Shown piece by piece: positions 41,250-55,590 of a stretch of DNA of 64,000 nt. Numbering within the stretch: the stretch's first letter is position 1; each line of letters opens with the position of its first letter. A program made the position numbers and the translations under genes. The notes below the pieces were generated by a model. The model saw nothing but the letters and a program-made list of their open reading frames with translations, did no database searches and was not told where the DNA came from. Source of the DNA: a virus; IMG/VR virus record IMGVR_UViG_3300037483_000742, positions 1 through 64,000 of that record. One strand, 5' to 3'.

Positions 41250-41254
41250 CCAAG

Positions 41255-41604: not shown

Positions 41605-41910
41605 ATGTATAAATTCAAAAAGAATCTCTTCCCAATGATCTTGTTGTTCCTGCTTGCTCTCTCTGCTGTGACACTGTTCTTGGTGTCAACACCAGTGCAA
41701 GATGTTTCTGGTATCATTGTGTCTCAGTCTGAGATGGAGGCAGCATTGCAAGATGCTTCTCAAACAATGTTGGTATTATGCATTGTTGTTGGCCTGTGTT
41801 ACATGCACAGTAGTGCAGTAGCCAAGCAAGTAAGGAAGCCTAAGAAGGCAGCACCTACTAAAGAAAGGCAAGTAGAAAGGCATGTGTCCTATATGGGCAT
41901 CAAAGTCTAA
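41605..41910 (+). CDS. Membrane protein with two hydrophobic segments, first early gene
   Basis: LFPMILLFLLALSAVTLFLV and MLVLCIVVGLCYM; basic tail. Confidence 0.6.
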   Translation: MYKFKKNLFPMILLFLLALSAVTLFLVSTPVQDVSGIIVSQSEMEAALQDASQTMLVLCIVVGLCYMHSSAVAKQVRKPKKAAPTKERQVERHVSYMGIKV

Positions 41911-42072
41911 CATGTCTGCAAAACCCCCTCTTATCTTTAGTAGTTCTACACCACATTTGGTACATATTCCCAGTGCAACAGTAAAGGGTACATCTGCTTG
42001 GCGAGGCCATTGCTGTTGCCGGAATATTCCAAAACCAATTCACCTATTTATTAACATCTAAAACCTTACAGC

Positions 42073-42144
42073 ATGAAGAAAGCAATGATCATCCACAATG
42101 GTTGCATTACACATCCTGATTGGCTCCACAATCCTAATGCATAA
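42073..42144 (+). CDS. 23-aa micropeptide MKKAMIIHNGCITHPDWLHNPNA
   Basis: A-rich leader; lies between motif copy 2 and a terminator. Confidence 0.4.
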   Translation: MKKAMIIHNGCITHPDWLHNPNA

Positions 42145-42153
42145 TTCCAACTG

Positions 42154-42190
42154 AAGCTGGCAACCTGAATGGTTGCTGGCTTTATCTTTA
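42154..42190 (+). terminator. Intrinsic terminator, family copy 1
   Basis: AAGCTGGCAACC-tgaat-GGTTGCTGGCTT followed by a T-rich tail. Confidence 0.65.
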
Positions 42191-42270
42191 TTTTTACCTA
42201 CCTGCAAAACCCCCTCTAAGTTTAGATATAAATCAATTTCACAAATTACTCACAATTAAATCAATTCATT

Positions 42271-42555
42271 ATGTTAGAATTAACCGTAGAGTCTTCAACC
42301 AAGACTAAAAATGACAACTTCTGCAACAAGTTGGTGTCAAAAACCATTGCCAAAGTAGAGACTGATTTTGGTACTGTTGAATCAGAGCGCACTGTAGCCT
42401 ATTACCTGTTCACCAACAAGGAGAACCCAAAAGGTATGAAGGCAAAGATGAACCTGGAGCTTTTCGATGTGGTAGAGAAATCTTACCCATTCATTGATGA
42501 GCAAGGAGAGGCGCAAGAAGCTACCTTGAAATACCTTTATCCTAAACGAGGATAA
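42271..42555 (+). CDS. Hypothetical early protein
   Basis: 94 aa with its own upstream motif and terminator. Confidence 0.65.
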   Translation: MLELTVESSTKTKNDNFCNKLVSKTIAKVETDFGTVESERTVAYYLFTNKENPKGMKAKMNLELFDVVEKSYPFIDEQGEAQEATLKYLYPKRG

Positions 42556-42563
42556 TTAGGATT

Positions 42564-42598
42564 GAGCCAGTGACCCATTAGGGTTGCTGGCTTTATTT
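42564..42598 (+). terminator. Intrinsic terminator, family copy 2
   Basis: GAGCCAGTGACCC-atta-GGGTTGCTGGCTT followed by a T-rich tail. Confidence 0.65.
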
Positions 42599-43013
42599 AA
42601 TCACTTAATATGTTAGCCAGCCCCAACATTGAAATATGATTAGGCTACAGGATTGAATATATTAATGAATCTTAAATTGAGTATGATATAATGAATAGGA
42701 TGAGCCAGGATCATTTGGCTCTCTGCTTAATTTGTATTACCTACAGGCAATACCCCCACTAATTTTAAGCTGTTAAACTTAGCAGAGATATGTTTAATGT
42801 ATTATATATTGATGAATTGAAATCAGTAAGATGTTTTTGATTGATTAAATGATTACATTAGCCGAAATTGATTAGGATTGAGAGATTAATTTAGTGTTCA
42901 TGATTGTGCCACTACACCTCATCAACCAAATTGATTCATTTTAGCCTTGCATAAAATATTAATCTATTACCAATATAGCCCTATTTTATTAATCCATTCT
43001 AAACTCCACATTT

Positions 43014-43454
43014 ATGAATACTTATATCTATCCACAATTTAAAGACTTACCTGCAACTCAAGTTGCATTAGATAAGATCGAAAAGCTTAAAGAAATTCAT
43101 CAATTAGCTATGGATGCTATTAAAGCAGAATTAAAAGTAGCAGAAGATAAATTCATTGCTGAAAGAGCTAAAAGAAGAGAAGAAGTTATTTGGGATTTCA
43201 CAATGTCAGAACCTACAATTAATGAGTTTGGAAAACATTATCATATTAGCAGAATGGCATTAAATCCATTAGCAGGAGATGATGAGTTTTATAAAACTAT
43301 TAATTATCAATCATTCAAAATTGTTAATAATGTATTCATAGCAACTGGAGGGGGATATATACTTCCAGTTAATTCAGGACACATATTAACTAAAGAAGAG
43401 ATTGATATGTTAGATAATAACATTGTACCTGAAGTTCTTAAAAGAACAAAATAA
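43014..43454 (+). CDS. Hypothetical protein
   Basis: 146-aa ORF followed by a terminator. Confidence 0.65.
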   Translation: MNTYIYPQFKDLPATQVALDKIEKLKEIHQLAMDAIKAELKVAEDKFIAERAKRREEVIWDFTMSEPTINEFGKHYHISRMALNPLAGDDEFYKTINYQSFKIVNNVFIATGGGYILPVNSGHILTKEEIDMLDNNIVPEVLKRTK

Positions 43455-43461
43455 AACTAAT

Positions 43462-43493
43462 AAGAATGGGAGCATAATAACTCCCATTCTTTT
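43462..43493 (+). terminator. Intrinsic terminator
   Basis: AAGAATGGGAG...CTCCCATTCTTTT. Confidence 0.7.
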
Positions 43494-43504
43494 ACACTAA
43501 TATT

Positions 43505-43654
43505 ATGGAAGAAGAGAGAGAAAAGAAAGAACTATTACAATCAATGTATAAAGTCCTATTAGCCTGGCAACTTGATGAAGAATGTTGTATTACTGAATAT
43601 AAAGCTTCAGTTGGAGCTATGGAAGATATTAAACAAGTATTTCAATTAACCTAA
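43505..43654 (+). CDS. 49-aa hypothetical protein (not in ORF track)
   Basis: MEEEREKKELLQSMYKVLLAWQLDEECC...FQLT*; fills the gap. Confidence 0.55.
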   Translation: MEEEREKKELLQSMYKVLLAWQLDEECCITEYKASVGAMEDIKQVFQLT

Positions 43655-43659
43655 CTATT

Positions 43660-44055
43660 ATGAACTTATCTAAAGCAATTAAAGTATTTGGGATATTGTA
43701 TATACTTATCTCCTTATTCAATTTAGGTGTAGTTATCATGTATGTTATTACAGACAATATGATTATTGCAATTCCTATAACTATTTGTTGGATCATCTTA
43801 ACAACAATCTTTGTTATATTCATACTAAATCAACCACCTATATTCAGATTCATAGGTAAGTATGATAATATTACAAGACCTCAATTACCTTATAAAAGAC
43901 CACTAACAGAAGATGAAATGATTACATTAAGAACCTATTATCCTGAATTTGGATGGACTACTCATGTTGATAACAGAGGACACATCCTATTAAATGGAGG
44001 AATGGATAATAGTGCAATACATTACACAACTCCTGAACACTTAGCAAAATATTAA
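43660..44055 (+). CDS. Membrane protein with two transmembrane segments
   Basis: Two hydrophobic N-terminal helices. Confidence 0.6.
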   Translation: MNLSKAIKVFGILYILISLFNLGVVIMYVITDNMIIAIPITICWIILTTIFVIFILNQPPIFRFIGKYDNITRPQLPYKRPLTEDEMITLRTYYPEFGWTTHVDNRGHILLNGGMDNSAIHYTTPEHLAKY

Positions 44056-44076
44056 CCCTTAAAAACATCCACAATT

Positions 44077-44391
44077 ATGGTAACAACAATTTTAGTATTA
44101 TGTGCATCCTTCATATTAGGTTGTATCTTAACTCTTGCATTTAGCTGGATATTCACACCACATAAAAATCATGTGAATCCTGCTTTATTTATGGTTCAAT
44201 CTGTATCATTTATGATTATTGCAATCTTAATGTATTATTGGCCTGAACAACAAGAAGCTCCTCTACCTTCAGATTACATTATCAATCTTGAACAAGATAG
44301 TGTTCATATTGATACAGAAGATGGAAGATGTTTGATGTTTCATGCAGACAGTATAGATATTGATGAATTTATTATTCAAGATAATCTCTAA
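44077..44391 (+). CDS. Membrane protein with two transmembrane segments
   Basis: Two hydrophobic helices and an acidic tail. Confidence 0.6.
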   Translation: MVTTILVLCASFILGCILTLAFSWIFTPHKNHVNPALFMVQSVSFMIIAILMYYWPEQQEAPLPSDYIINLEQDSVHIDTEDGRCLMFHADSIDIDEFIIQDNL

Positions 44392-45051
44392 ACCTATGAA
44401 AAAACCATCCCACAAAAAACAACCTTTATTACCAATAATCTTAAAACAATTATTGCTACTAAAGAAGAAACAACCATCTATAGGAAATATAGATATTCGT
44501 TTAGCAAGATCATTATCACTTTAAAATCCTAAACTCTTATCCAATTGCAGACGCATTAGCTAATTACTAATGATAATGGGTGTAAAGCTAAATGACTATC
44601 AACTTAGCTCAGATTCTGTATAATAGCCAGATTAAGGTGCAACCTTATAAGAGTTTATTTTTAATTTATCCACCTAAAACCTATCATCATGCAAATCCAC
44701 ATTGTATTTATCAATGTTCACGCATGTAGTGTCTTTCCTTCATTTTACCCTCAATCTTATATCTCCATATATAGTATTCTCGTAAGAGAAATTATACCAG
44801 TGTGGTGGGCATATCTTTTTCCAATTATCTACAAAATGATTGGAATTGGAGCCTGGGATTCAAGGTTAGTTCCTTGGATTCATGTATACAGTCAAGGTAT
44901 AAATACGGTAGCCTGAAAGTTAAAATATCAGATTTCTGAAGATTATGTATTCTGAAAACTAAATAAGCTCATTATGGATTTAACTCTAAATACACCGAGC
45001 TAGTATTTTAATGAATAAGAGACCTACATTGAACATAGTCAATCTTATAGA

Positions 45052-45095
45052 AAGGTTCCTGTTGCTCTAGATAGTAACAGGAACCTTGTTTTATT
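45052..45095 (+). terminator. 15-bp hairpin, probable terminator
   Basis: AAGGTTCCTGTTGCT-ctagat-AGTAACAGGAACCTT then GTTTTATT. Confidence 0.6.
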
Positions 45096-45114
45096 AACCC
45101 TCACAATCCAAAGT

Positions 45115-45507
45115 ATGAAAAGACCTAACATCAAAGTATACTATTGTATTACTAGACATGGTATTATTCAATTTCCTAAAGAATTAGCATCAAGTAATCA
45201 ATGTGTAATTGAAGGTCATGATAAATACTATTACACCTGTAAAATCCACACCGACAATAAAAAATTAGATTCACAAGGATTCATTATTGATCATAATGAT
45301 ATTGATTCAACAATCACTAAAGAACTTATCAGAAAGCAATTCACAGGTTCATGTGAATTGATGGCTGAAGCAATGATTGCTTTAGTTATCAAAATGCTCA
45401 AAAAGAAAAAGCAAAGATTCAAATCTATTGAAATTATCTTAAAAGGTAAACTTAATGATAGTCCTGCTTTTATTACAGCAAACTACATCAATAAAAACTT
45501 TAAATAA
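45115..45507 (+). CDS. QueD / 6-pyruvoyl-tetrahydropterin synthase-like T-fold protein, divergent
   Basis: CVIEGHDKYYY, LDSQGFIIDH and SCELMAEAM parallel the QueD CxxxHGHxY, GxxxDF and TxExxA motifs. Confidence 0.55.
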   Translation: MKRPNIKVYYCITRHGIIQFPKELASSNQCVIEGHDKYYYTCKIHTDNKKLDSQGFIIDHNDIDSTITKELIRKQFTGSCELMAEAMIALVIKMLKKKKQRFKSIEIILKGKLNDSPAFITANYINKNFK

Positions 45508-45514
45508 AAACGTT

Positions 45515-46195
45515 ATGACAACTAAAGCGAACAGCACAGTAAGTCTAAAAACATCTCAAGGAGATGTAAGAGTCAAAAAAGGAAAACTAATACTTATTAA
45601 AAAAGATTTATTTCCTGAAATAGGTATGATTGGTAGTAATGAAGTTCATCCATTATTTATATGGACCAACCAACACAAACAAAATTGTTTGAAATTAGTT
45701 GAATACAAACATTCTCAATTAATGTTAACAATTATCATATCTGAAACAGATCAGATTGAAAATGGTCACATGATGTGGGATTCTATCAATAATCATATTG
45801 TGAAATGCACTGATGCAGAACTGAAAGAAAATGTTTTATCTGATGAGACAAGAATGGCTTATCATAGAAGTTCTACATTCAAAATATTAGCAATGCCTAC
45901 AAACTTTTCACCTAAACAATTACAAGCAATTGTAGATGGTAAGATGAAAAATGGTGATGAAGTATACGTTCAATGTAAGAGAGTAGGTTATCAGCATATG
46001 TCAGCAGATTTTGTTGACCTGGATTCTAACAATCATATTACTCTTCATAAAGTTGAACAAAAAATGTATACTAAAGAAGAAATTGAATCTAAATGCAAAG
46101 ACTATCTAAATGCTTATCTTGCAAATATAGCAGGTAATAAGTCTACAATAATTGATACATTCAACAGTGATGAATGGTTTCAAAAACATCTATAA
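45515..46195 (+). CDS. Hypothetical protein
   Basis: Likely start at MTTKANS rather than 45455; C-terminal KMYTKEEI..FNSDEWF tail. Confidence 0.6.
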   Translation: MTTKANSTVSLKTSQGDVRVKKGKLILIKKDLFPEIGMIGSNEVHPLFIWTNQHKQNCLKLVEYKHSQLMLTIIISETDQIENGHMMWDSINNHIVKCTDAELKENVLSDETRMAYHRSSTFKILAMPTNFSPKQLQAIVDGKMKNGDEVYVQCKRVGYQHMSADFVDLDSNNHITLHKVEQKMYTKEEIESKCKDYLNAYLANIAGNKSTIIDTFNSDEWFQKHL

Positions 46196-46470
46196 AAATA
46201 TTCCCATAAGCTTTGCGAATCTGATGAAGGTACTGAAGCAACGAGGGCTAACTCGGAGAACCTGAATTAACAGGATGGGTGTATCATTTAATTACAATAA
46301 CAGGTGTCACATTCCAGCCCTGAAAGAATCCATTTGAAGCTATGGATAAATACATGGACTGCCTTCTATGTATTGAATGATAAGTTAAACTAAAAGCCTT
46401 TAATGCTTATCAATTTTAAGACTAACAGTGTAGAGCTTATTGTAATTGAATAACCTTTAAAAATTTAATT

Positions 46471-46728
46471 ATGCAATGCAAACATATACCTGACAAACCA
46501 ATATTAGAGTTTCTGTTACAACATAAACCTAAATGGTGTAATTGGTATTTCGGAGATGAAAGAGATGTACATAAAGCAATGCCAGAAAATATTCCAAATA
46601 AACTTGTTATTAATAAAATGAGACAACTTATAAGAAGAGGAATAGTTACAGGATGTGGTTGCGGATGTAGAGGAGACTTTGAAATAACACCAAAAGGTGA
46701 AGAATTACTTAAAACTTTGGTCTCATAG
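46471..46728 (+). CDS. Winged-helix-like protein with GCGCGCRGDF motif
   Basis: KMRQLIRRGIVTGCGCGCRGDFEITPKG; its stop codon lies inside tRNA-Arg. Confidence 0.6.
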   Translation: MQCKHIPDKPILEFLLQHKPKWCNWYFGDERDVHKAMPENIPNKLVINKMRQLIRRGIVTGCGCGCRGDFEITPKGEELLKTLVS

Positions 46729-46792
46729 CTCAACTGAATAGAGCATCACCCTTCTAAGGTGAGGGTTCTTGGTTTGAATCCAAGTGGGATCA
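46719..46792 (+). tRNA. tRNA-Arg(UCU)
   Basis: Cloverleaf: acceptor GGTCTCA/TGGGATC, anticodon arm TCACC-CTTCTAA-GGTGA; CCA not encoded. Confidence 0.9.
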
Positions 46793-46819
46793 CAATTAAC
46801 TTAATCAAAAAATATTTCC

Positions 46820-47059
46820 ATGAGAAAAATGATATACATTATGATAGGATTATTTGTTCTGTACATAATTTTGGTAACTGTAGTTTACAACAGTAACGAA
46901 CATTTTATTACTATCAGATATTTTGACAATAACAATGAAAACTTTCAAATGGCAACTGAAATTATATCACAAGATGCTAATTGTATTAAATTCAAAAACG
47001 AATTTGGTATGACACAAACAATTTGTGCTGAAAATATTTCTGTTACAGAATACAAATAA
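46820..47059 (+). CDS. Membrane-anchored hypothetical protein
   Basis: N-terminal hydrophobic helix. Confidence 0.6.
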   Translation: MRKMIYIMIGLFVLYIILVTVVYNSNEHFITIRYFDNNNENFQMATEIISQDANCIKFKNEFGMTQTICAENISVTEYK

Positions 47060-47067
47060 CAAATCTT

Positions 47068-47292
47068 ATGATAAATCCAGCAACAATTAAAGTAGGTGAC
47101 AAAGTTTACTATCAACCTGATCATTACAAAGCAGAAGATAAATATGAAAATGGTATTGTAAAAGAAGTACCAGAACATAGCACTGATTCTATTCGTGTAG
47201 TTTATAATTGTGCTGGTGATTGGAAGAATTATCAAAACTATACTTCTGCACTTACACATGTAAGAGATTTACATTTAGGTTGGAAACATTAA
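47068..47292 (+). CDS. Small SH3/KOW-like protein
   Basis: IKVGDKVYY...ENGIVK..IRVVY. Confidence 0.5.
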   Translation: MINPATIKVGDKVYYQPDHYKAEDKYENGIVKEVPEHSTDSIRVVYNCAGDWKNYQNYTSALTHVRDLHLGWKH

Positions 47293-47307
47293 TTAAAAAC
47301 TAAAGTT

Positions 47308-47826
47308 ATGAAAGTAATATTCTTAGACATTGATGGAGTACTTAATTTATGCTATGATTATTTACTTTCACAACAAGGTTTACCATCTCAAAGAGATGAT
47401 TATGGTAGTTCTTTTCATCCACATTTTGTAGAAAATCTTAAAAGATTAATTGAAGAAACAGATGCTAAAATTGTTATCAGTAGTACTTGGAGGTTATCAG
47501 GTTTAAGTATCATGAAAGAAATGTGGAAACATAGAAATCTTCCTGGAGAAATAATTGATATTACTCCTTGTTTTATGAGAACCAGAAATACTTCTCTTTG
47601 TAGAGGGGATGAAATTCAAGAATGGTTAAATAATCATATTGAAGTAACAAATTATGTTTACATTGATGATGATCATGTTGATGTAAATGAAAATCAATTA
47701 CCATATTTTATTAAGACTGCTGATAATTGTGATCACATAGATCATGTTCAAGGTTATGGTCTTACTAAAGAATGTACTGAAAAAGCAATTCAAATATTAA
47801 AAACATTGCCGTATAGTAGAGCGTAA
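47308..47826 (+). CDS. HAD-family phosphatase (HAD_SAK_2-like)
   Basis: FLDIDGVL, IVISSTWR, RGDEIQEWL and YVYIDD motifs. Confidence 0.85.
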   Translation: MKVIFLDIDGVLNLCYDYLLSQQGLPSQRDDYGSSFHPHFVENLKRLIEETDAKIVISSTWRLSGLSIMKEMWKHRNLPGEIIDITPCFMRTRNTSLCRGDEIQEWLNNHIEVTNYVYIDDDHVDVNENQLPYFIKTADNCDHIDHVQGYGLTKECTEKAIQILKTLPYSRA

Positions 47827-47955
47827 AAGGTAGAGGAGTAATGTCCATTGTATACAAGTTAGCATGGTAATGGCTTGTACAAGATACCACCATGAGCTTC
47901 TGTTATACGGCAGTACCATTGTTCTCCCTGGCTTACAGGTGTAGTCCAATAACAC

Positions 47956-47989
47956 AAAAACCCTTTGAGAGAAATCTCAAGGGGTTTTT
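47956..47989 (+). terminator. Intrinsic, possibly bidirectional, terminator
   Basis: AAAAACCCTTTGAGA-GAAA-TCTCAAGGGGTTTTT. Confidence 0.75.
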
Positions 47990-47994
47990 ATATT

Positions 47995-48068
47995 TCCTTC
48001 TTAGCTCAGTTGGTTAGAGCATCGCACTGTTAATGCGAGGGTCACTGGTTCAAGTCCAGTAGGGGGAG
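47995..48068 (+). tRNA. tRNA-Asn(GUU)
   Basis: Acceptor TCCTTCT/AGGGGGA, anticodon arm TCGCA-CTGTTAA-TGCGA, T-loop TTCAAGT. Confidence 0.93.
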
Positions 48069-48082
48069 CAAAAATCAATATT

Positions 48083-48256
48083 ATGACAAAAGCTAAATTT
48101 AAAACATTCAAAGAGATAACAAACTATCATACTTTCTTGTATGGAAATCTTTGGCATTTTGTAACACCGACAAAGACAACTAAGAAAGTATTAAGTAGAA
48201 TTTTAGCATTCAGACAAATGAATACTACTAAGCTTACTGAATATGGAAAGAATTAA
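48083..48256 (+). CDS. 57-aa hypothetical protein (not in ORF track)
   Basis: MTKAKFKTFKEITNYHTFLYGNLWHF...YGKN*. Confidence 0.45.
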   Translation: MTKAKFKTFKEITNYHTFLYGNLWHFVTPTKTTKKVLSRILAFRQMNTTKLTEYGKN

Positions 48257-48408
48257 ATATTTCTGAAGGACAAACAATTAAAAACTGAGAACCAGTTCAG
48301 AAATTTATTCTTACATACACAACTATAATTTTTCCGAGGCTGGAGATTAATTGGATGAAAGACCTATTCCTATTATGGTTGTGTATGTAATAATTTATTA
48401 AACATGTT

Positions 48409-48552
48409 ATGAAATCACCTAAACAAATTGTTGAAGAATTAAATGATCTTAAAGAACATATCTATGCTTTAGGTTCAGAATACTCTGATGCTTATTCTAG
48501 TGTCGATGATGCAGTTGACATTATCAATAAAGTAAAAGAAGAGGAAGAATAA
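48409..48552 (+). CDS. 47-aa acidic protein (not in ORF track)
   Basis: MKSPKQIVEELNDLKEHIYALGSEY...KEEEE*. Confidence 0.55.
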   Translation: MKSPKQIVEELNDLKEHIYALGSEYSDAYSSVDDAVDIINKVKEEEE

Positions 48553-48793
48553 AAACTAGCCCTGAATAATGATCATGTTTTATCTTGCATAAAAGATGAA
48601 TCCTCTTGTTGTATATAGAGTCCATTGCTTGAAGAGGCAAACTGTATACTGACTGAATTACAATTGCAACAGCCTAACATGGAAGGTGTGTTAAAGGTAT
48701 GAAAGTTTCAGGCATAAGTCAGAGAGATAGAAGGTAACCGCCTGTATTATCTCTCTGACTTTCATTTTAACCTATTTTAAATCCACCCACATT

Positions 48794-49597
48794 ATGCCAC
48801 AACCAGTAAAATTATTTTGTGTTAGTTGTTTAAATCATACACAACACATGCCAGGAGGAAATCCATTAGCTATGAATTGTGGCTGTGGTCAAATTTTTGT
48901 TGATCAATCTAAAAATACAATTCACAGAAATTTAGAAGCTATTGTAATGGTTGCAAAACATGAAGCTAAAGAGCATAATTGCAACTATAATATCATCTTA
49001 ATGAATCCTGTTGAAGGAGAATTAGGTGAAAGTAGTACTTATGAAATGGTTGCTGATTCTTATTTTGAAAAAGAAAGACCAAATGTAAAATTAATAGCAA
49101 CTACATTACAATTAGGTGTTATTGTTTATGATGAATGGTTGAAATATACTGAATATGAAAAAGCAGAATGTGATATTAAATTACATGATGGTACAATAAT
49201 TTATCATTGTTATCCTAATGCAGGAAAGTTTAATCCTATGTGTGCTGATTCAATTCAAGAAATTCCAGAAGATCAAGTTAAAGAAATAATGTATCGTAAA
49301 TATTACTTAGAAGGTTTGTGTAAGAGTAATAAATACAATTGCAATAAAATCGAAGGGAATGACAAAGAAGCTAGAAATCAACTTGGTGATCCAGGTGAAC
49401 AGTTTGCTCATTATGATCATGAAGTTAACAAAATCATAGATCATTTTAGTAATACAAGACATTATTCGGATGGAGGTAGAGCTATGAAAGCAGATATGAC
49501 CAGAAGATTTGTTTCTGTAAGAACTGAACCTAAGATTGGAAGAAATGAACCATGTACTTGTGGTTCTGGTAAAAAATATAAGAAGTGTTGCATGTAG
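48794..49597 (+). CDS. SEC-C motif protein
   Basis: C-terminal KIGRNEPCTCGSGKKYKKCC; N-terminal CxxC..CxC. Confidence 0.8.
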   Translation: MPQPVKLFCVSCLNHTQHMPGGNPLAMNCGCGQIFVDQSKNTIHRNLEAIVMVAKHEAKEHNCNYNIILMNPVEGELGESSTYEMVADSYFEKERPNVKLIATTLQLGVIVYDEWLKYTEYEKAECDIKLHDGTIIYHCYPNAGKFNPMCADSIQEIPEDQVKEIMYRKYYLEGLCKSNKYNCNKIEGNDKEARNQLGDPGEQFAHYDHEVNKIIDHFSNTRHYSDGGRAMKADMTRRFVSVRTEPKIGRNEPCTCGSGKKYKKCCM

Positions 49598-49612
49598 CAA
49601 CACTTCTTTTTT
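49580..49612 (+). terminator. Intrinsic terminator overlapping the SEC-C codons
   Basis: AAGAAGTGTTGC-atgta-GCAACACTTCTTTTTT. Confidence 0.65.
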
Positions 49613-49624
49613 AAAACATTAATT

Positions 49625-51886
49625 ATGGGAATGTATAAATCAGTTTGTAAACTGTGTGACAAACCTTTTATGTGGCACAGTTCAACAGGTTTCAGTGACA
49701 TTTGCTATGATTGTAGAAAAATAAACCTTCAGATACGAAATGATAGTAGTACTGAATTAAATCAAAAAAATAAAATGATAGAATTAAACAAACAACTTGC
49801 AATACAATTTGAAAAAATGTGTGCAACTGGTAAATTATTTAGGTCTGAAATTACCGGACAACAGATATGGGATTTGTATATCTCATCTTTTCCTAAAGAA
49901 CAGAATCCTATTTTCAGAGACCCAAACAGCTCACAACATAATTGTAATCTGTGTAATAACTTTTTACGTAGATATGGCAATATTGTAGCTATTGATGAGA
50001 ATTTGAAGATAATGACAATTTTTGATATTGAAGTTGATGAAGAATATTCAGCAACTATTCAAACTTTAAGTACAAAATTAAAGAAAGCAAAAATTGCTGA
50101 AATATTCCTTGAAACATTTCAAGAGCTTAATTCATTACCGTATGAATCTTGCACTAAAACAAATACAGTTTTTCAATTAGGAACAGCTAAAAATCATAAA
50201 CGTTATACAAAAGAAGAAGCTGAAAAATTTGGTGTAGTAAAACCAGATGAAATTCGTTCTTTTCATCACATGCATTTATTTTTACCTAAAATGTTTGTTG
50301 ATATAACTGGTAATTCTGTTGAATCAATTATGGCTGGTTACAGAGATGCTAAGAATGTATTTCAAAGAGCAATGGAAGAAATCTCTTTAGACACTTTAAA
50401 ATTGGTGCGTGACCTTATTAATCAAGGATCACTTCTTAATGGAGAAGCACATTTAAAGAAAATAGAAGAGATTATACCACTCAAAGAACAATATGATTCT
50501 TTAGCAGCTAAAGACCACAATAACTGGTGTTGGATTGTCAGCTACAGATTGCCTTATGCTAAATTCAAGAATGAACTTATTGGTGTTTTATGTTCAGAAT
50601 TATCTGAAGGTAAAGAGTTGAATGAAGCTTGTCAAGCTTGGAACAAAAGAGTTGATCCAGCTAATTATATGAAAGCAACAGCTCCTATTACTAAAAAACA
50701 AATTGAAGAAGCAAAAACTTTTGTTGAAGAAAATGGTTATTCTGAATCATTTGATAGAAGATGCGCAACACTTACAGACATTAAGGTTGATGAAATAAAA
50801 CATATCAATGCTGGTGATGGTAAAGTAAAATCAGTATCTGTATTTGACAGTGTTAAAGCAACTAGTACACGTCATAAGAGAAGCGAATTTGATGGTCTTG
50901 AAGAAGTTACTATTGATAAATTCATGAAAGATATTCTTCCAACATGTACTTCTGTCGAAGCTTATTTAAGTAATCGTCATGAAAAGAATATGGTCACAAT
51001 GACCACTACTAACAGACCAGAAAGTAAACCTATTTTCAAATGGGATAATAATTACTCCTGGACATTTAATGGCAATCTTGCTGGTAAATCAGAAATCAAA
51101 GAAGCTGTTAAATCTGAAGGTGGTAAAATAGATGGTGTTCTAAGATTCTCTATTATCTGGAATCAAGATGGTAAAGATATTCTTGATTTTGATGCTCATT
51201 GTAAAGAGCCTAGTGGAAGTGAAATCTACTTTAGCAATAAAGTAAGCAGAATCAGCGGGGGAACCTTAGATGTAGATATGATCAGACCTTCAAAATTAGG
51301 TGTTGAAAATATTACATGGCAATCTTTATCAAAGATGAAAGAAGGAGTCTATAAATTCTGGATTAGAAACTTTGATGGAGGTTCAAATAAAGGTTTTAAA
51401 GCTGAAATTGAATTTGATGGACAGATATTTTTATATGAGTATAATACTCCAGTGTCAGGTAGTAAAAAAGATATAATTATCGCTGAAGTAACTCTTAAAG
51501 ATGGTCAATTTTCAATTAAGCATATAACTCCTGAATCAGCAGTTTCTTCTAAAGATATTTATGCTTTAGAATCAAATCAATTTCATAAAGTAAACCTAGT
51601 TTGCTTATCTCCGAATCATTGGGGAAAAAATGAAATTGGTAATAAGCATTATTTCTTTATGCTTGAAGGTTGTAAATCACCTGTATCATTACGTAGTTTT
51701 CATAACGAGAATCTTAATGCAGAATTACTTGGTCACAGAAAAGTGATGGAAGTATTAGGCAATACAACTCATATTGAATCTATAGATAATCAATTATCAG
51801 GTCTTGGTTTCAATGCAACTGTAAGAGATGAGGTAATCGTTAAACTTGGCGGTACTCATAAAAGAATGATCAAAATCAAGTTTTAA
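49625..51886 (+). CDS. Large phage protein with a YfaP/DUF2135-like domain
   Basis: HNCNLCNNFLRRYG; LRFSIIWN..DFDAHCKEP..GGTLDVD..VENITW; alternative start at 49775. Confidence 0.65.
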   Translation: MGMYKSVCKLCDKPFMWHSSTGFSDICYDCRKINLQIRNDSSTELNQKNKMIELNKQLAIQFEKMCATGKLFRSEITGQQIWDLYISSFPKEQNPIFRDPNSSQHNCNLCNNFLRRYGNIVAIDENLKIMTIFDIEVDEEYSATIQTLSTKLKKAKIAEIFLETFQELNSLPYESCTKTNTVFQLGTAKNHKRYTKEEAEKFGVVKPDEIRSFHHMHLFLPKMFVDITGNSVESIMAGYRDAKNVFQRAMEEISLDTLKLVRDLINQGSLLNGEAHLKKIEEIIPLKEQYDSLAAKDHNNWCWIVSYRLPYAKFKNELIGVLCSELSEGKELNEACQAWNKRVDPANYMKATAPITKKQIEEAKTFVEENGYSESFDRRCATLTDIKVDEIKHINAGDGKVKSVSVFDSVKATSTRHKRSEFDGLEEVTIDKFMKDILPTCTSVEAYLSNRHEKNMVTMTTTNRPESKPIFKWDNNYSWTFNGNLAGKSEIKEAVKSEGGKIDGVLRFSIIWNQDGKDILDFDAHCKEPSGSEIYFSNKVSRISGGTLDVDMIRPSKLGVENITWQSLSKMKEGVYKFWIRNFDGGSNKGFKAEIEFDGQIFLYEYNTPVSGSKKDIIIAEVTLKDGQFSIKHITPESAVSSKDIYALESNQFHKVNLVCLSPNHWGKNEIGNKHYFFMLEGCKSPVSLRSFHNENLNAELLGHRKVMEVLGNTTHIESIDNQLSGLGFNATVRDEVIVKLGGTHKRMIKIKF

Positions 51887-51905
51887 ACTAACTAAATAAA
51901 AAATC

Positions 51906-52280
51906 ATGGCAAATAATTTTAAAGAGGCAGTAGTAAATAAAACTCGTGTCCAAACTCCAAAAGGAGCATTAAGTGCAGAACAATTATGTGAACTATCTAT
52001 TCCAGAATTAGATGGTTTAGCTGTTGAATTGGAAGAAGCTTATAAAGAATCAGGTAAGAAGTCTTTTGTAACTAAAAGTTCTGCTAAAAGCAAAGAAGCT
52101 AAACATAAGTTTGATTTAGTTCTTGAAATTCTGCAAATGAAAGTTGAAGAGCAAGAAATTGCTGCTGAGAAATTAGAAAACAAACAGCACAATGAAAGAA
52201 TCCTTGAACTCATTGCAGGTAAACAAGATGAAGAGCTGAAAGGTTTATCTATTGCTGAATTGAAGAAAAAACTTAAATAA
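51906..52280 (+). CDS. Coiled-coil partner protein of the upstream gene
   Basis: TPKGALSAEQLCEL...ELKGLSIAELKKKL. Confidence 0.6.
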   Translation: MANNFKEAVVNKTRVQTPKGALSAEQLCELSIPELDGLAVELEEAYKESGKKSFVTKSSAKSKEAKHKFDLVLEILQMKVEEQEIAAEKLENKQHNERILELIAGKQDEELKGLSIAELKKKLK

Positions 52281-52291
52281 CATTTAAGATA

Positions 52292-52362
52292 TGTCTCATC
52301 GTCTAGGGGTAGGACGCAAGCTTTTGGTGCTTGAAACTCAGGTTCGATTCCTGGTGAGACAT
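52292..52362 (+). tRNA. tRNA-Gln(UUG)
   Basis: Acceptor TGTCTCA/TGAGACA, anticodon arm CAAGC-TTTTGGT-GCTTG, T-loop TTCGATT. Confidence 0.9.
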
Positions 52363-52381
52363 CACAAACCATCAACAAATT

Positions 52382-53110
52382 ATGAGATCAGACTTACAAC
52401 TATTCATTAGAAGAACTAAAACCAGTTTAGTGCCAGAGAAAGATAATGTTGTTAAAGAAACTATGAGATATGTTTCCCAATTCTTTTTTGAAAGACAACA
52501 ACATCAAATAACATTTCTTACTTTACCTAGTGCATGGTGGAAATTTGAAATGAATATGCAGAATCATATTAGTGGAGTGTATGGAGGAAATAATTTAACA
52601 CCACCTTATCTAAGATTTATTGGATTTGAAAGAGAGTGGAAAATATTTCAACTAGCAAGTATCAATATTCCAAAAGATACTTATAACAGACCATTACAAT
52701 GTAAAAGAGATGAAGAGCTAAATTGTTCTATAGTCACAAACAGTAACAAACATGTATTGTATAATTGTGATGTATTTGAATATCTAAAATTAGCAAAAAG
52801 CAGAAAAGTTGAAGATGATCATAGATGTGATGTTGTATGGTTAGACCTTACAGTAGCTATTACACATGTAGCAGAAAAATTACATCATATCAAAAATGTA
52901 ATGAAGAAAGATTCTATTGTTATATTAACCTTAATGAAAGCCAGGGAGCATTTAAAATTACCTTTGGAAAGAGAGGAATATATTGATAGTATTATGCTTC
53001 CATTAGGTCTTGAAAAGATAAAAACATTTGTCTATAAAGATACCACACCAATGATTCATATTATTTACAAACAATCAGATCAAACTGTATACAAACAGGA
53101 TGTTCTTTAA
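52382..53110 (+). CDS. Rossmann-fold methyltransferase-like protein
   Basis: FLTLPS, FIGFERE, CDVFEYL, DVVWLDL and IVILTL follow the class I MTase strand order. Confidence 0.5.
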   Translation: MRSDLQLFIRRTKTSLVPEKDNVVKETMRYVSQFFFERQQHQITFLTLPSAWWKFEMNMQNHISGVYGGNNLTPPYLRFIGFEREWKIFQLASINIPKDTYNRPLQCKRDEELNCSIVTNSNKHVLYNCDVFEYLKLAKSRKVEDDHRCDVVWLDLTVAITHVAEKLHHIKNVMKKDSIVILTLMKAREHLKLPLEREEYIDSIMLPLGLEKIKTFVYKDTTPMIHIIYKQSDQTVYKQDVL

Positions 53111-53357
53111 AACAAAAACTATGCTGAAAATTGAAATAACTGGTAAAACTAAACCTAGATTAGATTTTCCAAAATTAATGATATTTGAAGAAGAGGGAGA
53201 AAAAACTATCATTCTTGCTTTTAAACAAGAAAGTGGGAACATCTGGGGAACAGTTATAGAATCCACTAATGAAGATGAAAAAATTGGTTATCATAGTCAA
53301 CGTTGGAATAGTGATAAATTTAAAGACTTTGTTGGAACAGTAACTATCAAAAGTTAA
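53100..53357 (+). CDS. Hypothetical protein
   Basis: FPKLMI...GTVI..IGYHSQRW..FKDFVGTVTI. Confidence 0.55.
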   Translation: MFFKTKTMLKIEITGKTKPRLDFPKLMIFEEEGEKTIILAFKQESGNIWGTVIESTNEDEKIGYHSQRWNSDKFKDFVGTVTIKS

Positions 53358-53487
53358 AACCTATTAGACTGTCTTATTCATTAAGACACGACAGATGAAA
53401 ATGAGAGAGATAGTGAGTAATTCATAATTATGAAAGTAACATGATTATCTCTCTCATTTATTTAAAAACCTATTAAACACAAAAAAC

Positions 53488-53817
53488 ATGAATACTACAA
53501 ATTTCAGTTTTACAGTAATAGCTAAGTTGGATTTATCTCATACAAATGGAGATAAAACATCTAAGCATGAAGGATTATCTTTTCTATTAGAACCGAGTGA
53601 AAATCTTTTTGCTCCTCAATACATAGACAAAGAAGGATTACCAACTAAAGAAGGTAGTGAAGTAATTATGAAAGTTCTTGTTTCTGCTTTAGCAGCTAAT
53701 ATTCATACCTCACATCAAAGTGTGTTCAAAGATAAAGAAGAACACTTAAAAGAAGTTATCAAAAGATTAGAAGAACAAGTTGCTTTAGAAGCTATAGCAA
53801 AAAAATCTATGATGTAG
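53488..53817 (+). CDS. Hypothetical protein
   Basis: 109-aa ORF. Confidence 0.6.
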   Translation: MNTTNFSFTVIAKLDLSHTNGDKTSKHEGLSFLLEPSENLFAPQYIDKEGLPTKEGSEVIMKVLVSALAANIHTSHQSVFKDKEEHLKEVIKRLEEQVALEAIAKKSMM

Positions 53818-53818
53818 T

Positions 53819-54253
53819 ATGGAAGATGTATTGATTTCATTTGAAACTGCACAATTGGCTAAAGAGAAAAAATTTGATCTTGAAGTTCAAGCTATGACAG
53901 TTGGAAAAGATTATCCAATTGTGTTTAATCCACAAGAAGAATCACCATACAATTGGAATAGTAAAGCAGGATATTCTATACCTACACAATCTTTATTACA
54001 AAAGTGGTTAAGAGAAAAGCATAAAATAATACTTTTTGTGCAACATGAAATTATTGATTCTTCTGAATCTGCTTATACTTGGGCTATAAAAATTTATATT
54101 CCAGATGGAATTGAAGGTACAAGTAAAAAAAGAGAATCTGATTTTTGGAAACGTATGGATTCTTTTAATCATGAACAAGCTTGGTGGAAGAGTTATGAAG
54201 AAGCTTTAGAAAAAGGATTACAAAAAAGTTTGAAATTATGCAAGAACAATTAA
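53819..54253 (+). CDS. Hypothetical protein, paralog A
   Basis: ISFETAQLAKEKKF, PTQSLLQKWLRE and SYEEALE motifs. Confidence 0.7.
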   Translation: MEDVLISFETAQLAKEKKFDLEVQAMTVGKDYPIVFNPQEESPYNWNSKAGYSIPTQSLLQKWLREKHKIILFVQHEIIDSSESAYTWAIKIYIPDGIEGTSKKRESDFWKRMDSFNHEQAWWKSYEEALEKGLQKSLKLCKNN

Positions 54254-54597
54254 TATCATTTGAAACAGCAATATTAGCTAAACAGAAAGGATTTAATTTA
54301 ATGGTACAGTTTGCTTATGATCTTAAAGGAGAAATAACTACTGCTACTAATTTAAAATATTTTGCTCCTACACAACCTTTTTTACAGAAATGGCTCAGAG
54401 ATGCTAAAGGAATAGAAATAACAATCATTCCTAATTACATTTATATTGTCTTCCCTTTAAAAAGAATGACAGATGCATTAGATAAATTAGAAAAAGATCA
54501 AACAATTGATCTTTTAGATTTAGCTAGTGAAATTGAATACAAAACTTATGAAGAAGCACTTGAAGTAGCATTAGTTGAAGCATTAAAACTTATTTAA
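54238..54597 (+). CDS. Hypothetical protein, paralog B
   Basis: ISFETAILAKQKGF, PTQPFLQKWLRD and TYEEALE motifs. Confidence 0.7.
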   Translation: MQEQLISFETAILAKQKGFNLMVQFAYDLKGEITTATNLKYFAPTQPFLQKWLRDAKGIEITIIPNYIYIVFPLKRMTDALDKLEKDQTIDLLDLASEIEYKTYEEALEVALVEALKLI

Positions 54598-54598
54598 C

Positions 54599-54856
54599 AT
54601 GAAAAAAGGAGATATAGTTAAATGTATTGATGATAAAAATCAACCTGAAGGAGCATGTGTTGTTGAAGGACAAGATTATGTTGTAATCTCAAGCAGGATG
54701 AATGATTATGGTCAAAGAATTGTATTTCTTGAAGGTGTTCCTAATAATGGTAGAACCAGTAAAGGATTAGAATGGAATGGCTATAATGCCAAAAGATTTG
54801 GTACTCCAATTAATTCTTCAGTTGAAGTAGAAGAAACAGAATTTGCTACAGCTTAA
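54599..54856 (+). CDS. Small SH3-like protein
   Basis: MKKGDIVKCID...YNAKRF. Confidence 0.55.
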   Translation: MKKGDIVKCIDDKNQPEGACVVEGQDYVVISSRMNDYGQRIVFLEGVPNNGRTSKGLEWNGYNAKRFGTPINSSVEVEETEFATA

Positions 54857-55101
54857 AAATCTTACAGTTAGAGTGTTTCCAATTGAAAAATATTGGTACA
54901 AATATTCTATTGTTTGAAAGCTTATAGAGTATGCTGCACACAAATCTGGGAAGGCAGCACTAAGCTATTCCAGGACCACTGAGCATTGTTTTGACATCAT
55001 TTAACTGGACTTTATACTTTTAAATGTTGTAGAATGGCTGACGAGATTCAGAAACAATGTGGATAGAAGGGATAAACAAGGCTTTATAAGTTTTTTGAAA
55101 T

Positions 55102-55311: not shown

Positions 55312-55315
55312 TTTT

Positions 55316-55492: not shown

Positions 55493-55513
55493 ATGTGGAT
55501 GGTCTAAATAGGT

Positions 55514-55556: not shown

Positions 55557-55590
55557 ACATCCAATTATTAATCACTAAAAATCATCCACT

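What the first reader, a model, noticed from the sequence alone, without database searches (positions are those of the whole stretch)
41940..55094. Series of different long-stem, often multi-branched non-coding elements between early genes and tRNAs
Seen: most larger gaps in the early arm are closed by a stem, usually 10-19 bp, that often encloses internal hairpins. Examples are 41957-42038, 44530-44657, 44770-45008, 46206-46440, 47805-47914, 48311-48390, 48561-48761, 53399-53459 and 54917-55094. G-U pairs are frequent on the plus strand, which favours structure at the RNA level. The sequences differ, so this is not a repeat family. Inference: a repertoire of phage ncRNAs cut from early transcripts, for example by RNase III as in T7 early RNA, possibly acting as decoys or regulators.
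Basis: partly seen in the sequence, partly recalled or inferred. Interest (0 to 1): 0.78.

Follow-up and report, generated by a model that had tools for sequence, protein, structure and literature searches.

The report
Structured RNA modules in phage early arm
The early region of this crAss-like phage of flavobacteria is about one-fifth non-coding, and it holds two or three conserved structured RNA elements that match no catalogued RNA family, mixed with ordinary terminator hairpins and some stems no better than chance.

Summary
The window is a 92-kb crAss-like phage. Its closest cultured relatives are Flavobacterium psychrophilum phages (TerL 58% identical).

- **Stem length.** In this 30%-GC DNA, shuffles already give long-range stems of 10-12 bp. 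Only 5 of 9 gaps have stems beyond shuffles (15-19 bp).
- **Gap 46196-46470.** It is not one 235-nt RNA. It holds two separate modules:
  - a cloverleaf-like four-way junction (46198-46284), found in 3 phage contigs;
  - a 166-nt module (46286-46451), also in 3 contigs.
  Both are 96% paired with many compensatory changes and plus-strand G-U pairs.
- **Element 44530-44657.** It belongs to a family present in at least 8 IMG/VR phage contigs and 18 cultured F. psychrophilum phage records. The ends are near-invariant inverted sequences. The interior is variable and unstructured, so the proposed four-way junction is not supported.
- **Terminator-like hairpins.** Several elements are of this kind, and two share one stem sequence, so "no repeat family" is not fully right.
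- **Context.** Rfam matches only tRNAs. Relatives carry tmRNA and up to about 20 tRNAs in the same arm. Phage phi14:2 is reported to make abundant early non-coding RNAs of unknown function.

RNase III processing and decoy roles remain untested. Both tools for finding more related contigs and sequencing reads were closed.

The parts
44530..44657 (+). Rod / inverted-repeat element (model R3). 5' arm AAACTCTTAT-CCAA-TTGCA (44530-44549), 3' arm TGCAA-CCTT-ATAAGAGTTTA (44638-44657), then a T-rich run. The 87-nt interior is not conserved.
   Evidence: - Pattern scan and sequences.
- Pair table.
- R3 hits in 8 of 36 phage records.
- 18 cultured F. psychrophilum phage records.
- Interiors not structured.
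44658..45051 (+). Remainder of the 590-nt gap. It is structure-rich and also holds a 75-aa hydrophobic ORF (44689-44916) of uncertain reality.
   Evidence: - Fold of 44658-45095: z = -4.6, 0 of 100 shuffles as good.
- 44770-45008 alone: z = -1.8.
- No homologue of the ORF in 183 loci.
- An ATCCAC motif lies upstream of its ATG.
45052..45087 (+). Intrinsic-terminator-like hairpin (15 bp) followed by GTTTTATT, closing the 590-nt gap.
   Evidence: I8.
46198..46284 (+). Cloverleaf-like four-way junction RNA (model R2). A 9-bp closing helix AUAU.CCCAU/AUGGG.GUAU encloses three arms, including CGAG-GGCUAA-CUCG and CCUG-AAUUAA-CAGG. It begins 3 nt after the stop codon of gene 45455-46195.
   Evidence: - 79% identical to L003:3854-3948.
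- Third member L024:441-561, 29 bits, E = 5e-4.
- 96% of cells paired, 7 pairs with changes on both sides, 1 of 500 shuffles as good.
46286..46451 (+). Second structured RNA module (model R1). It has a closing helix of 11 scored pairs (15 bp in the window) that covaries fully among 3 phages. Conserved blocks are ACAGGUGUCACAU..CAGCCCUGAAAGAA and UAAGACUAACAGU.UAGAGC. The central helix is variable but paired.
   Evidence: - Homologues L160:2412-2588(-), which is L170:6798-6974, and L179:10439-10562(-) at 36 bits, E = 2e-5.
- 96% paired, 14 pairs with changes on both sides, 0 of 500 shuffles as good.
- The 15-bp stem exceeds all shuffles.
46719..46793 (+). tRNA-Arg(TCT). It overlaps the last 10 nt of ORF 46471-46728, so it must be cut out of a polycistronic RNA.
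47805..47914 (+). Hairpin closed by 17 uninterrupted bp. Its 5' arm overlaps the last codons of the HAD_SAK_2 gene (47308-47826). No homologue was found.
   Evidence: - z = -3.4 (+) and -4.5 (-).
- Stem exceeds all shuffles.
- No hits.
47956..47989 (+). Intrinsic-terminator-like hairpin 5 nt upstream of tRNA-Asn (47995-48069).
48311..48390 (+). 19-bp near-perfect hairpin with one U-G on the + strand, followed by UAAUUUAUU. Probably a terminator or 3'-end-protecting hairpin after gene 48083-48256.
   Evidence: - z = -6.7.
- I1.
- Stem exceeds all shuffles.
- No homologue found.
48561..48715 (+). Multi-branch fold whose closing stem (9 bp or less) is no longer than in shuffles. Unsupported as a discrete element.
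48716..48761 (+). 14-bp perfect hairpin followed by TTCATTTT, terminator-like. It shares its stem core GAGAGATA/TATCTCTC with 53399-53459.
   Evidence: (I12).
53399..53459 (+). 16-bp hairpin, A-rich upstream and T-rich downstream (bidirectional-terminator-like). It is the second copy of the GAGAGATA/TATCTCTC stem.
   Evidence: - z = -5.7 (+) and -5.9 (-).
- (I13).
54916..55095 (+). Candidate element closed by 15 bp, including 3 G-U pairs on the + strand. Marginal support only.
   Evidence: - z = -2.0 (+) and -0.3 (-).
- 3% of shuffles reach the stem length.
- No homologue found.
41957..42038 (+). GC-richer hairpin inside a short cassette running from a C5-motif promoter to the terminator at 42152-42184. 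Its stem length is what shuffles give.
   Evidence: - z = -2.7 (+) and -0.6 (-).
-.

Best explanation
The series is heterogeneous.

(1) The core is a small set of independent structured-RNA genes on the early (+) strand.
- The cloverleaf-like module is at 46198-46284 and the 166-nt module at 46286-46451.
- Each is closed by its own terminal helix. They sit back to back right after a stop codon, with no promoter or terminator of their own.
- I infer that they are transcribed as part of the early polycistronic RNA.
- I infer that they are cut out like the tRNAs of the same arm and persist as stable small RNAs acting in trans. This would match the abundant, long-lived early non-coding RNAs reported for phage phi14:2.
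- Their target is unknown. My best guess is a host or phage RNA-binding, translation or RNA-repair/defence factor. In relatives this arm is the place for tRNAs and tmRNA, and it also holds an RNA-repair-type HAD gene.

(2) 44530-44657 is a member of a separate, widely scattered family.
- What is conserved is an imperfect 20-nt inverted terminal pair with a fixed asymmetric centre, placed just after a stop codon and followed by a T-run.
- Most likely it is an RNA rod (a processing or termination signal) that alternates with a local hairpin YAAGGU-GCA-ACCUUR.

(3) 45052-87, 47956-89, 48311-90, 48716-61 and 53399-459 are terminator or 3'-end-protecting hairpins.

(4) 41957-42038, 44770-45008 and 48561-48715 have no support beyond chance. 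47805-47914 and 54916-55095 are open.

Shown here: conservation, covariation, strand, and independence from neighbouring genes. Inferred: transcription, excision, stability and trans action.
For: **Family identity**
- Rfam finds only tRNAs, even at E <= 5.

**Module R1 (46286-46451)**
- Three members are known. Their closing helices are AAUUACAAUAA/UUAUUGUAAUU, AACUCUCAUAA/UUAUGAGAGUU and AACUUCUAAUA/UAUUAGAAGUU.
- 96% of cells are paired, 14 pairs change on both sides, and 0 of 500 shuffles do as well. Slid controls give 32-47% paired.

**Module R2 (46198-46284)**
- Three members are known. All five scored helices have at least one compensatory change, and several U-G pairs lie on the + strand. 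1 of 500 shuffles does as well.

**Independence from neighbours**
- No neighbouring protein is shared between carriers.
- R2 carriers are not TerL relatives. R1 carriers have TerL 51% identical or no TerL match. The RNAs are therefore conserved independently of any gene they might regulate in cis.

**Rod family (R3)**
- Near-invariant ends occur in 8 IMG/VR contigs and 18 cultured Flavobacterium phage records, usually one copy per record (two in tandem in G069).
- FPSV-S29 has lost one T-A pair from both arms together.
- The 11th pair is U-G on the + strand in 7 of 8.

**Arrangement and context**
- In G048 and L179 the rod lies 220-270 nt upstream of an R1 module inside ORF-free stretches of about 700 nt.
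- Relatives carry genuine tmRNA (56-78 bits) and up to about 20 tRNAs in the same arm.
- phi14:2 has two long early intergenic regions transcribed above most genes and persisting late, function unknown (bioRxiv 10.1101/2020.03.07.982082).
- Terminator-like sites are enriched: 14 found against 4.6 expected.
Against: - There are only three sequences per module. The alignments used for counting were fitted to the models, which inflates pairing.
- R1-R3 do not match phi14:2, so the link to its lncRNAs is by analogy only.
- The rod's helices are almost invariant, with only 2 pairs showing double changes. Its interiors are not structured (mean z -0.2). A DNA-level reading therefore fits it about as well.
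- Five of the nine listed elements have no homologue in about 2.5 Mb of related loci.
- Most complete TerL relatives lack all three families.
Confidence: 0.55

Rival explanations
1. All of them are cis-acting parts of early mRNAs: intrinsic terminators, attenuators, RNase III or RNase E sites and 3'-end stabilisers. They set operon boundaries and mRNA half-lives, as the R sites do in T7 early RNA, and no trans-acting RNA product exists.
For: - Terminator-like sites are enriched: 14 against 4.6 expected.
- The strongest local z-scores are terminator hairpins.
- The rod starts within 15 nt or less of a stop codon and is followed by a T-run in nearly all members.
- The rod has two mutually exclusive folds (rod against local hairpin), as attenuators do.
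- The 17-19-bp stems would be dsRNA substrates.
Against: - R1 and R2 are multi-helix junctions with conserved loops, not simple hairpins.
- R1 and R2 have no T-run.
- They sit next to non-homologous genes in every carrier, which a gene-specific regulator would not do.
- Sequence invariance of the rod's internal loop is not needed for termination.
Confidence: 0.25
2. They are DNA-level elements. The inverted terminal sequences with an AT-rich variable spacer (44530-44657), and perhaps the whole 590-nt gap, would be an origin of replication, an operator/promoter region, or the ends of a small mobile or recombination cassette.
For: - The rod ends contain perfect palindromes (CAATTG; CAAGGT-GCA-ACCTTG), typical of dimeric DNA-binding sites.
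- The interior is AT-rich (20-38% GC), variable in length and unstructured.
- Distribution among unrelated phages is sporadic.
- The cumulative GC skew of the window is lowest at 45000-45500.
Against: - There is a single copy per genome, apart from one tandem duplication.
- No recombinase or conserved protein lies nearby.
- The element was not found in 401 Bacteroidota genomes.
- The two arms differ at the same four positions in all members, which fits an RNA internal loop better than one protein binding both ends.
- U-G pairs lie on the + strand.
- There are no iterons in the gap.
- This reading cannot explain the R1 and R2 junction structures, which have G-U pairs on one strand only.
Confidence: 0.12
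3. The elements without homologues are chance stems in AT-rich spacers, together with unannotated small genes (for example the 75-aa ORF 44689-44916 and a 23-aa ORF at 42074). They have no RNA-level function.
For: - Shuffles give 10-12-bp long-range stems.
- z-scores of -1.5 to -2.9 were obtained for regions chosen because they fold.
- Coding windows also reach z < -2 in 12% of cases.
- Small hydrophobic ORFs follow the rod in the window, L178 and FPSV-S29.
Against: This cannot hold for R1, R2 and the rod family, which are conserved across phages. It also cannot hold for the 15-19-bp stems that no shuffle reaches.
Confidence: 0.08

Closest known systems
Early long non-coding RNAs of Cellulophaga crAss-like phage phi14:2 (g004-g005 and g005-g006 junctions; Drobysheva et al., bioRxiv 10.1101/2020.03.07.982082)
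   Same: - The same phage order, with a host in the same bacterial class.
- Long ORF-free stretches at the start of the rightward early arm.
- Reported as transcribed above most genes from the earliest time point and persisting. Function unknown.
   Different: - No sequence or model match of R1-R3 in phi14:2.
- The phi14:2 regions are 0.7-1.7 kb without a published structure.
- Here the units are 90-170 nt, modular and shared patchily among phages.
T4 tRNA-region stable RNAs (species 1 and 2, rnaC/rnaD), co-transcribed and processed with phage tRNAs (from my own knowledge, not tested here)
   Same: Small structured RNAs of unknown function, interspersed with phage tRNA genes in an early or middle transcript. 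Their termini are paired.
   Different: - A different phage lineage and host, with no sequence relation.
- Processing has been shown for T4 and not for this phage.
T7 early-region RNase III sites (R0.3-R1.3)
   Same: Stem-loops with an internal loop lying between early genes. The rod with its conserved 4x4 loop, and the 17-19-bp stems, look similar.
   Different: - T7 sites are single irregular hairpins of about 50-60 nt. R1 and R2 are multi-way junctions.
- The rod encloses 45-106 nt of variable sequence.
- Cleavage was not tested.
Large ornate phage-associated RNAs near tRNAs (ROOL, GOLLD; Rfam; cryo-EM preprint 10.1101/2024.12.08.627333)
   Same: Structured non-coding RNAs carried by phages, often beside tRNA genes. 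Function unknown.
   Different: - No Rfam match even at E <= 5.
- The modules here are much smaller and separable.
Phage-encoded tmRNA (Rfam RF00023), present in relatives L048, L107 and G048
   Same: The same genomic arm. A structured RNA closed by pairing of its two ends, next to tRNAs.
   Different: This phage has no tmRNA match at all. G048 carries both tmRNA and an R1 module, so R1 is not a tmRNA substitute or remnant.

Membership tests
Any Rfam 15 family (including tRNA, tmRNA, ROOL, GOLLD, 6S-Flavo, hammerhead, group I intron) | Covariance-model score at or near the gathering threshold | tested here: not met
   Only the three tRNAs pass. Nothing in the gaps matches at E <= 5 beyond four sub-threshold hits of 22-27 bits, all 22 or more bits below their gathering scores, which I read as chance. 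The same holds for homologous loci.
tRNA or tRNA-like (for the cloverleaf module 46198-46284) | 7-bp acceptor stem, D, anticodon and T arms with a 7-nt T-loop consensus; detected by ARAGORN or RF00005 | tested here: not met
   ARAGORN and Rfam do not call it. Its arms are 9 / 6+4 / 4 / 4 bp with 6-nt loops GGCUAA and AAUUAA.
tmRNA | tRNA-like domain formed by the 5' and 3' ends, plus a tag reading frame; RF00023 match | tested here: not met
   No match in the whole 92-kb genome at E <= 10, while relatives score 56-78 bits.
Hammerhead ribozyme (suggested by CUGAUGA at 46218) | Invariant core CUGANGA ... GAAA, conserved among homologues | tested here: not met
   The homologues read CUGAGGG (L003) and UUCUAGG (L024) at that place. 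There is no Rfam hit.
RNase III processing sites of T7 type | Cleavage by RNase III at an irregular hairpin of about 20 bp between genes | not testable with these tools
   Stems of 15-19 bp exist.
Intrinsic (rho-independent) terminators | Stable hairpin followed directly by a T-run on the transcribed strand | tested here: met
   - Met by the scan for 45052-87 and 47956-89.
- By eye for 48716-61 (TTCATTTT).
- Weaker for 53399-459 and 48311-90.
- Not met by R1 and R2.
MITE-like mobile element (for 44530-44657) | Multiple copies per genome with terminal inverted repeats and target-site duplications | tested here: not met
   - There is one copy in the window and in most carriers.
- The 3'-arm pattern gave only two one-mismatch hits, read as chance, in 401 Bacteroidota genomes.
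- No flanking direct repeats were seen.
phi14:2-type early lncRNA | High, rifampicin-resistant early transcription of a long ORF-free region at the start of the early arm | not testable with these tools
   The position and ORF-free nature are the same. No transcript data exist for this phage. There is no sequence homology.

The most novel reading that the evidence does not exclude
Aquatic crAss-like and other phages of Flavobacteriia exchange a toolkit of small, self-contained structured RNA genes. It has at least three families that no database holds: the cloverleaf junction, the 166-nt module and the rod-capped element. These genes occupy the same early 'RNA island' as phage tRNAs and tmRNA. 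They are released from early transcripts as stable RNAs that act on host translation, RNA repair or RNA-sensing defence. The rod family is present in cultured F. psychrophilum phages, so this is directly testable.
Probability: 0.4. Interest if true: 0.7.

Novelty: new variant of a known kind. Interest (0 to 1): 0.55.

Why it matters
crAss-like phages are among the most abundant viruses known. The one transcriptome available (phi14:2) showed very abundant early non-coding RNAs that nobody has explained.

This window gives those RNAs an anatomy for the first time. The units are short, separable and closed by helices. Covariation supports them, they are shared patchily between distant phages, and they sit where relatives keep tRNAs and tmRNA.

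One family also occurs in cultured Flavobacterium psychrophilum phages, which are candidates for phage therapy against a fish pathogen. Northern blots, end mapping and deletions are therefore possible now.

If the RNAs act on host translation or defence, they would be a new class of phage counter-measure. If they are only processing or termination signals, they still define how early operons of this phage order are punctuated.

Tried and rejected
**Searches that found nothing**
- Megablast and distant blastn of the gaps against 50,697 GenBank phages gave nothing, except for the rod family when a consensus-like member was the query.
- The search for related loci with early proteins 48794-49597 and 45455-46195 found no relatives.
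- Exact-pattern scans for R2 and R1 in IMG/VR and JGI metagenomes returned only the contigs already known.
- The three genome-contig hits for the R2 pattern match the number expected by chance, and R2 does not recognise them.

**Readings rejected**
- Hammerhead reading of CUGAUGA: the motif is not conserved.
- tmRNA remnant: no match in this phage, and G048 has both tmRNA and an R1 module.
- Group I intron, ROOL, GOLLD and 6S-Flavo: no Rfam signal.
- MITE: single copy.
- Origin of replication in the 590-nt gap: no iterons. Only a shallow GC-skew minimum supports it.
- Host-genome origin of the rod: not found in 401 Bacteroidota genomes.
- Cis-regulator of a conserved downstream gene: there are no shared neighbours.

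**Context genes**
- The 753-aa and 124-aa proteins next to tRNA-Gln gave no Pfam, NCBIfam or PDB annotation.

- The look-up of encoding contigs.
- The look-up of sequencing runs, so read laying could not be used.

Full report
**Where we are.** The window is the first 64 kb of a 92,012-bp IMG/VR virus record with direct terminal repeats, at about 30% G+C.
- Late genes fill the minus strand up to 41105.
- From about 41600 a plus-strand early arm begins.
- The large terminase is 58% identical to those of Flavobacterium psychrophilum phages (FpV4/FPSV, about 90 kb). More distant hits are to Cellulophaga and Bacteroides crAss-like phages. The phage is therefore a crAss-like phage of a flavobacterial host.
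- The arm carries tRNA-Arg, tRNA-Asn and tRNA-Gln. It also carries a HAD domain of the 'Swiss Army Knife' RNA-repair type at 47308-47826.
- About 3.2 kb of the 14.9 kb between 41106 and 56000 lies in gaps of 98-590 nt.

- Whole-element z-scores against dinucleotide shuffles run from -1.5 to -6.7 on the plus strand. These regions were picked because they fold, so I ran two unbiased tests.
- First test: a 100-nt sliding scan of 41100-55950. Intergenic windows have mean z -1.34 against -0.59 for coding windows (p = 0.007). The extreme windows are mostly terminator hairpins.
- Second test: the longest uninterrupted long-range stem (WC+GU) in each gap, compared with shuffles of that gap. Shuffles give a mean of 8-12 bp and up to 16 bp, so a '10-12 bp closing stem' is expected by chance in this AT-rich DNA.
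- Five stems exceed the shuffles: 46286/46451 (15 bp), 47805/47914 (17), 48311/48390 (19), 53399/53459 (16) and, marginally, 54916/55095 (15).
- Rfam 15 matches nothing but the tRNAs, even at E <= 5.

**Gap 46196-46470 holds two RNAs, not one.**
- Its 5' part is 79% identical to a stretch of an unrelated 129-kb phage contig (L003).
- Its 3' part matches a 100-kb relative whose terminase is 51% identical (L160, record G048).
- RNAalifold on each pair gives a separate closed structure.
- The 5' module (46198-46284) is a four-way junction. A 9-bp closing helix encloses a long arm and two 4-bp hairpins with 6-nt loops, GGCUAA and AAUUAA.
- The 3' module (46286-46451) has these parts:
  - a closing helix of 11 scored pairs;
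  - a conserved hairpin CAGG.GU...GCCCUG;
  - a variable but paired central helix;
  - a conserved 3' hairpin.
- Covariance models R2 and R1 each recovered a third member: L024:441-561 (29 bits, E about 5e-4) and L179:10439-10562 (36 bits, E about 2e-5).
- R1 on three sequences:
  - 96% of cells pair, 14 pairs change on both sides, and 0 of 500 shuffles do as well;
  - partners slid by 1-3 columns pair only 32-47% of the time;
  - the closing helix reads AAUUACAAUAA, AACUCUCAUAA and AACUUCUAAUA, each with its exact complement.
- R2 on three sequences: 96% paired, 7 pairs changed on both sides, 1 of 500 shuffles as good. Every scored helix has at least one compensatory change.
- Several pairs are U-G on the plus strand and would be A-C on the minus strand. 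The structure therefore belongs to the early-sense RNA.
- Caveats: there are only three sequences per family, and the counted alignments were fitted to the models.

**The modules are autonomous units.**
- No protein next to a module is shared between carriers.
- R2 occurs in phages that share only the 753-aa gene with this one. R1 occurs in a distant terminase relative and in a 180-kb phage with no terminase match.
- Most complete relatives lack both.
- In the window the two modules follow the stop codon of gene 45455-46195 by 3 nt and run straight into gene 46471-46728, which itself overlaps tRNA-Arg. There is no terminator in between.
- They must therefore be made as part of a polycistronic early RNA, like the tRNAs.
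- Their paired termini are what processed stable RNAs typically have. Excision and stability are inferred, not shown.

**Element 44530-44657 belongs to a wider family, but not as a four-way junction.** A short block at its 3' end matched several relatives.
- Distribution:
  - A pattern scan of IMG/VR found eight contigs. Seven of them, plus the window, have the full architecture.
  - A model of the family (R3) hits 8 of 36 phage records, usually once. These include phages whose terminase is 26-33% identical or unmatched.
  - Blastn with a consensus-like member finds the element in 18 cultured F. psychrophilum phage records, in unannotated intergenic DNA. In FPSV-S29 it lies at 89569-89673 (73 bits).
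- Conserved ends:
  - What is conserved is 5' AAACTCTTAT-CCAA-TTGCAGG and 3' CAAGG-TGCAA-CCTT-GTAAGAGTTT.
  - Together they make an 11-bp stem, a fixed 4x4 mismatch and a 5-bp stem.
- Evidence for pairing is limited, because the helices hardly vary:
  - two pairs with double changes;
  - a U-G at the 11th pair in 7 of 8;
  - one C-to-U giving U-G;
  - one mismatch;
  - in FPSV-S29, a coordinated loss of one T-A pair from both arms.
- A competing local hairpin, YAAGGU-GCA-ACCUUR, inside the 3' arm also covaries. It is C..G in most members, U..A in the window and U.G in L179.
- The interiors are 45-106 nt, 20-38% G+C and unalignable. They fold no better than shuffles (mean z -0.2).
- The element starts within about 15 nt of an upstream stop codon and is followed by a T-rich run. 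What follows further downstream differs between carriers: a small hydrophobic ORF, a larger gene, or more non-coding RNA.
- It is single-copy per genome, apart from one tandem duplication of [rod + about 330 nt] in L175.
- It was not found in 401 sampled Bacteroidota genomes.
- In G048 and L179 the rod sits 220-270 nt upstream of an R1 module, inside ORF-free stretches of about 700 nt. In the window the two are 1.6 kb apart.
- I read the rod as an RNA processing or termination signal with two alternative folds. A DNA-level site (operator, origin or recombination site) is not excluded.

**The rest of the list.**
- 45052-45087 and 47956-47989 are textbook terminator-like hairpins.
- 48716-48761 and 53399-53459 are 14- and 16-bp hairpins followed by T-rich runs. 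They share the stem GAGAGATA/TATCTCTC (2 matches, 0 expected; found only in this genome).
- 48311-48390 is a 19-bp hairpin with one plus-strand U-G. It lies 55 nt after a gene and is most simply a terminator or 3'-end protector.
- 47805-47914 (17 bp, overlapping the end of the HAD gene) and 54916-55095 are beyond or near the chance limit. They have no homologues, so their role is open.
- 41957-42038, 44770-45008 and the branched part of 48561-48715 have no support beyond a modest z-score.
- The 44658-45095 stretch as a whole folds at z = -4.6, but it also contains a possible 75-aa ORF.

**Context that bears on function.**
- Relatives carry genuine tmRNA genes in the same arm. Rfam RF00023 scores 56-78 bits in L048, L107 and G048. 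G048 also has about 20 tRNAs there.
- This phage has no tmRNA at all.
- The preprint on Cellulophaga phage phi14:2 makes several relevant points:
  - two long early intergenic regions are transcribed above most protein genes;
  - they are present from the first time point and do not decline;
  - their function is unknown;
  - early genes are transcribed by the injected virion RNA polymerase.
- In the GenBank record the ORF calls in those regions have been withdrawn.
- Models R1-R3 do not match phi14:2. The parallel is therefore one of kind, not of family.

**Verdict.**
- The interpretation 'a repertoire of phage ncRNAs cut from early transcripts' is partly supported: well for two modules, plausibly for the rod family, and not for several hairpins that look like terminators or chance.
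- RNase III cleavage and decoy function are untested.
- The three conserved families are absent from Rfam. I rate the finding a new variant of a known kind, namely phage early non-coding RNAs.

**Limits.**
- Each family therefore rests on few sequences.

Noticed in passing
window 41541-41583, 41919-41945, 42202-42228, 42742-42770: The motif A(A)ACCCCC(A/T)C-N4-6-TTTTAG recurs at the head of short gene-plus-terminator cassettes. Its core ACCCCCACTAATTTTTAG, with an upstream block ATTATAAGTGTGTGA.CCTCCCTAG, is conserved at the arm junction of seven terminase relatives. It is a good candidate for the early (virion RNA polymerase?) promoter, for which no motif was found in phi14:2.
   Followed up: partly
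L048:9579-9979, L107:1696-2099(-), L170:16077-16455: Relatives of this phage encode genuine tmRNA (Rfam 56-78 bits, with tags ending ...VAA or ...AMVA). One relative (G048) has about 20 tRNAs in the early arm. This phage has only 3 tRNAs and no tmRNA.
   Followed up: yes
window 48716-48761 and 53399-53459: Two terminator-like hairpins share the stem core GAGAGATA/TATCTCTC, with different loops. There are two copies in the 92-kb genome and none in the related loci.
   Followed up: yes
window, upstream of the ATGs at 43014, 44077, 44689, 48794, 55591: The motif ATCCAC lies 4-16 nt upstream of the start codon in 5 of 35 early genes (background 3.7% per 25-mer). Most of these are the first gene after a gap or terminator. 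It may be a promoter-proximal or translation-start signal.
   Followed up: partly
window 49625-52363: A 753-aa protein (PHROG 1735; no Pfam, NCBIfam or PDB match) and a 124-aa protein, followed here and in L003 by tRNA-Gln. The proteins occur in 80 and 62 of the fetched loci, and the 753-aa protein matches 532 GenBank phage records from many hosts. Function unknown.
   Followed up: partly
L024:435-1609: An ORF-free stretch of 1.2 kb begins with the cloverleaf module and continues with further long-stem structures. There is no Rfam match.
   Followed up: partly
L175:300-1100 (minus strand): A tandem duplication of a unit made of the rod element plus about 330 nt of G+C-richer non-coding sequence. 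The two copies share internal blocks (GATACTAGC..GTTTA, GCAGTGGT..CAAAGCC). There is no Rfam match.
   Followed up: partly
window 47308-47826: The gene has a HAD_SAK_2 domain (HAD domain of 'Swiss Army Knife' RNA-repair proteins, E = 5e-28). It lies between the RNA modules and tRNA-Asn. About 2,100 homologues were found in the protein collection.
   Followed up: partly
window 41605-42555: The first cassettes of the early arm are clearly G+C-richer (38-42%) than the rest of the phage (about 30%). Gene 42271-42555 has a 58%-identical homologue in relative L089.
   Followed up: no
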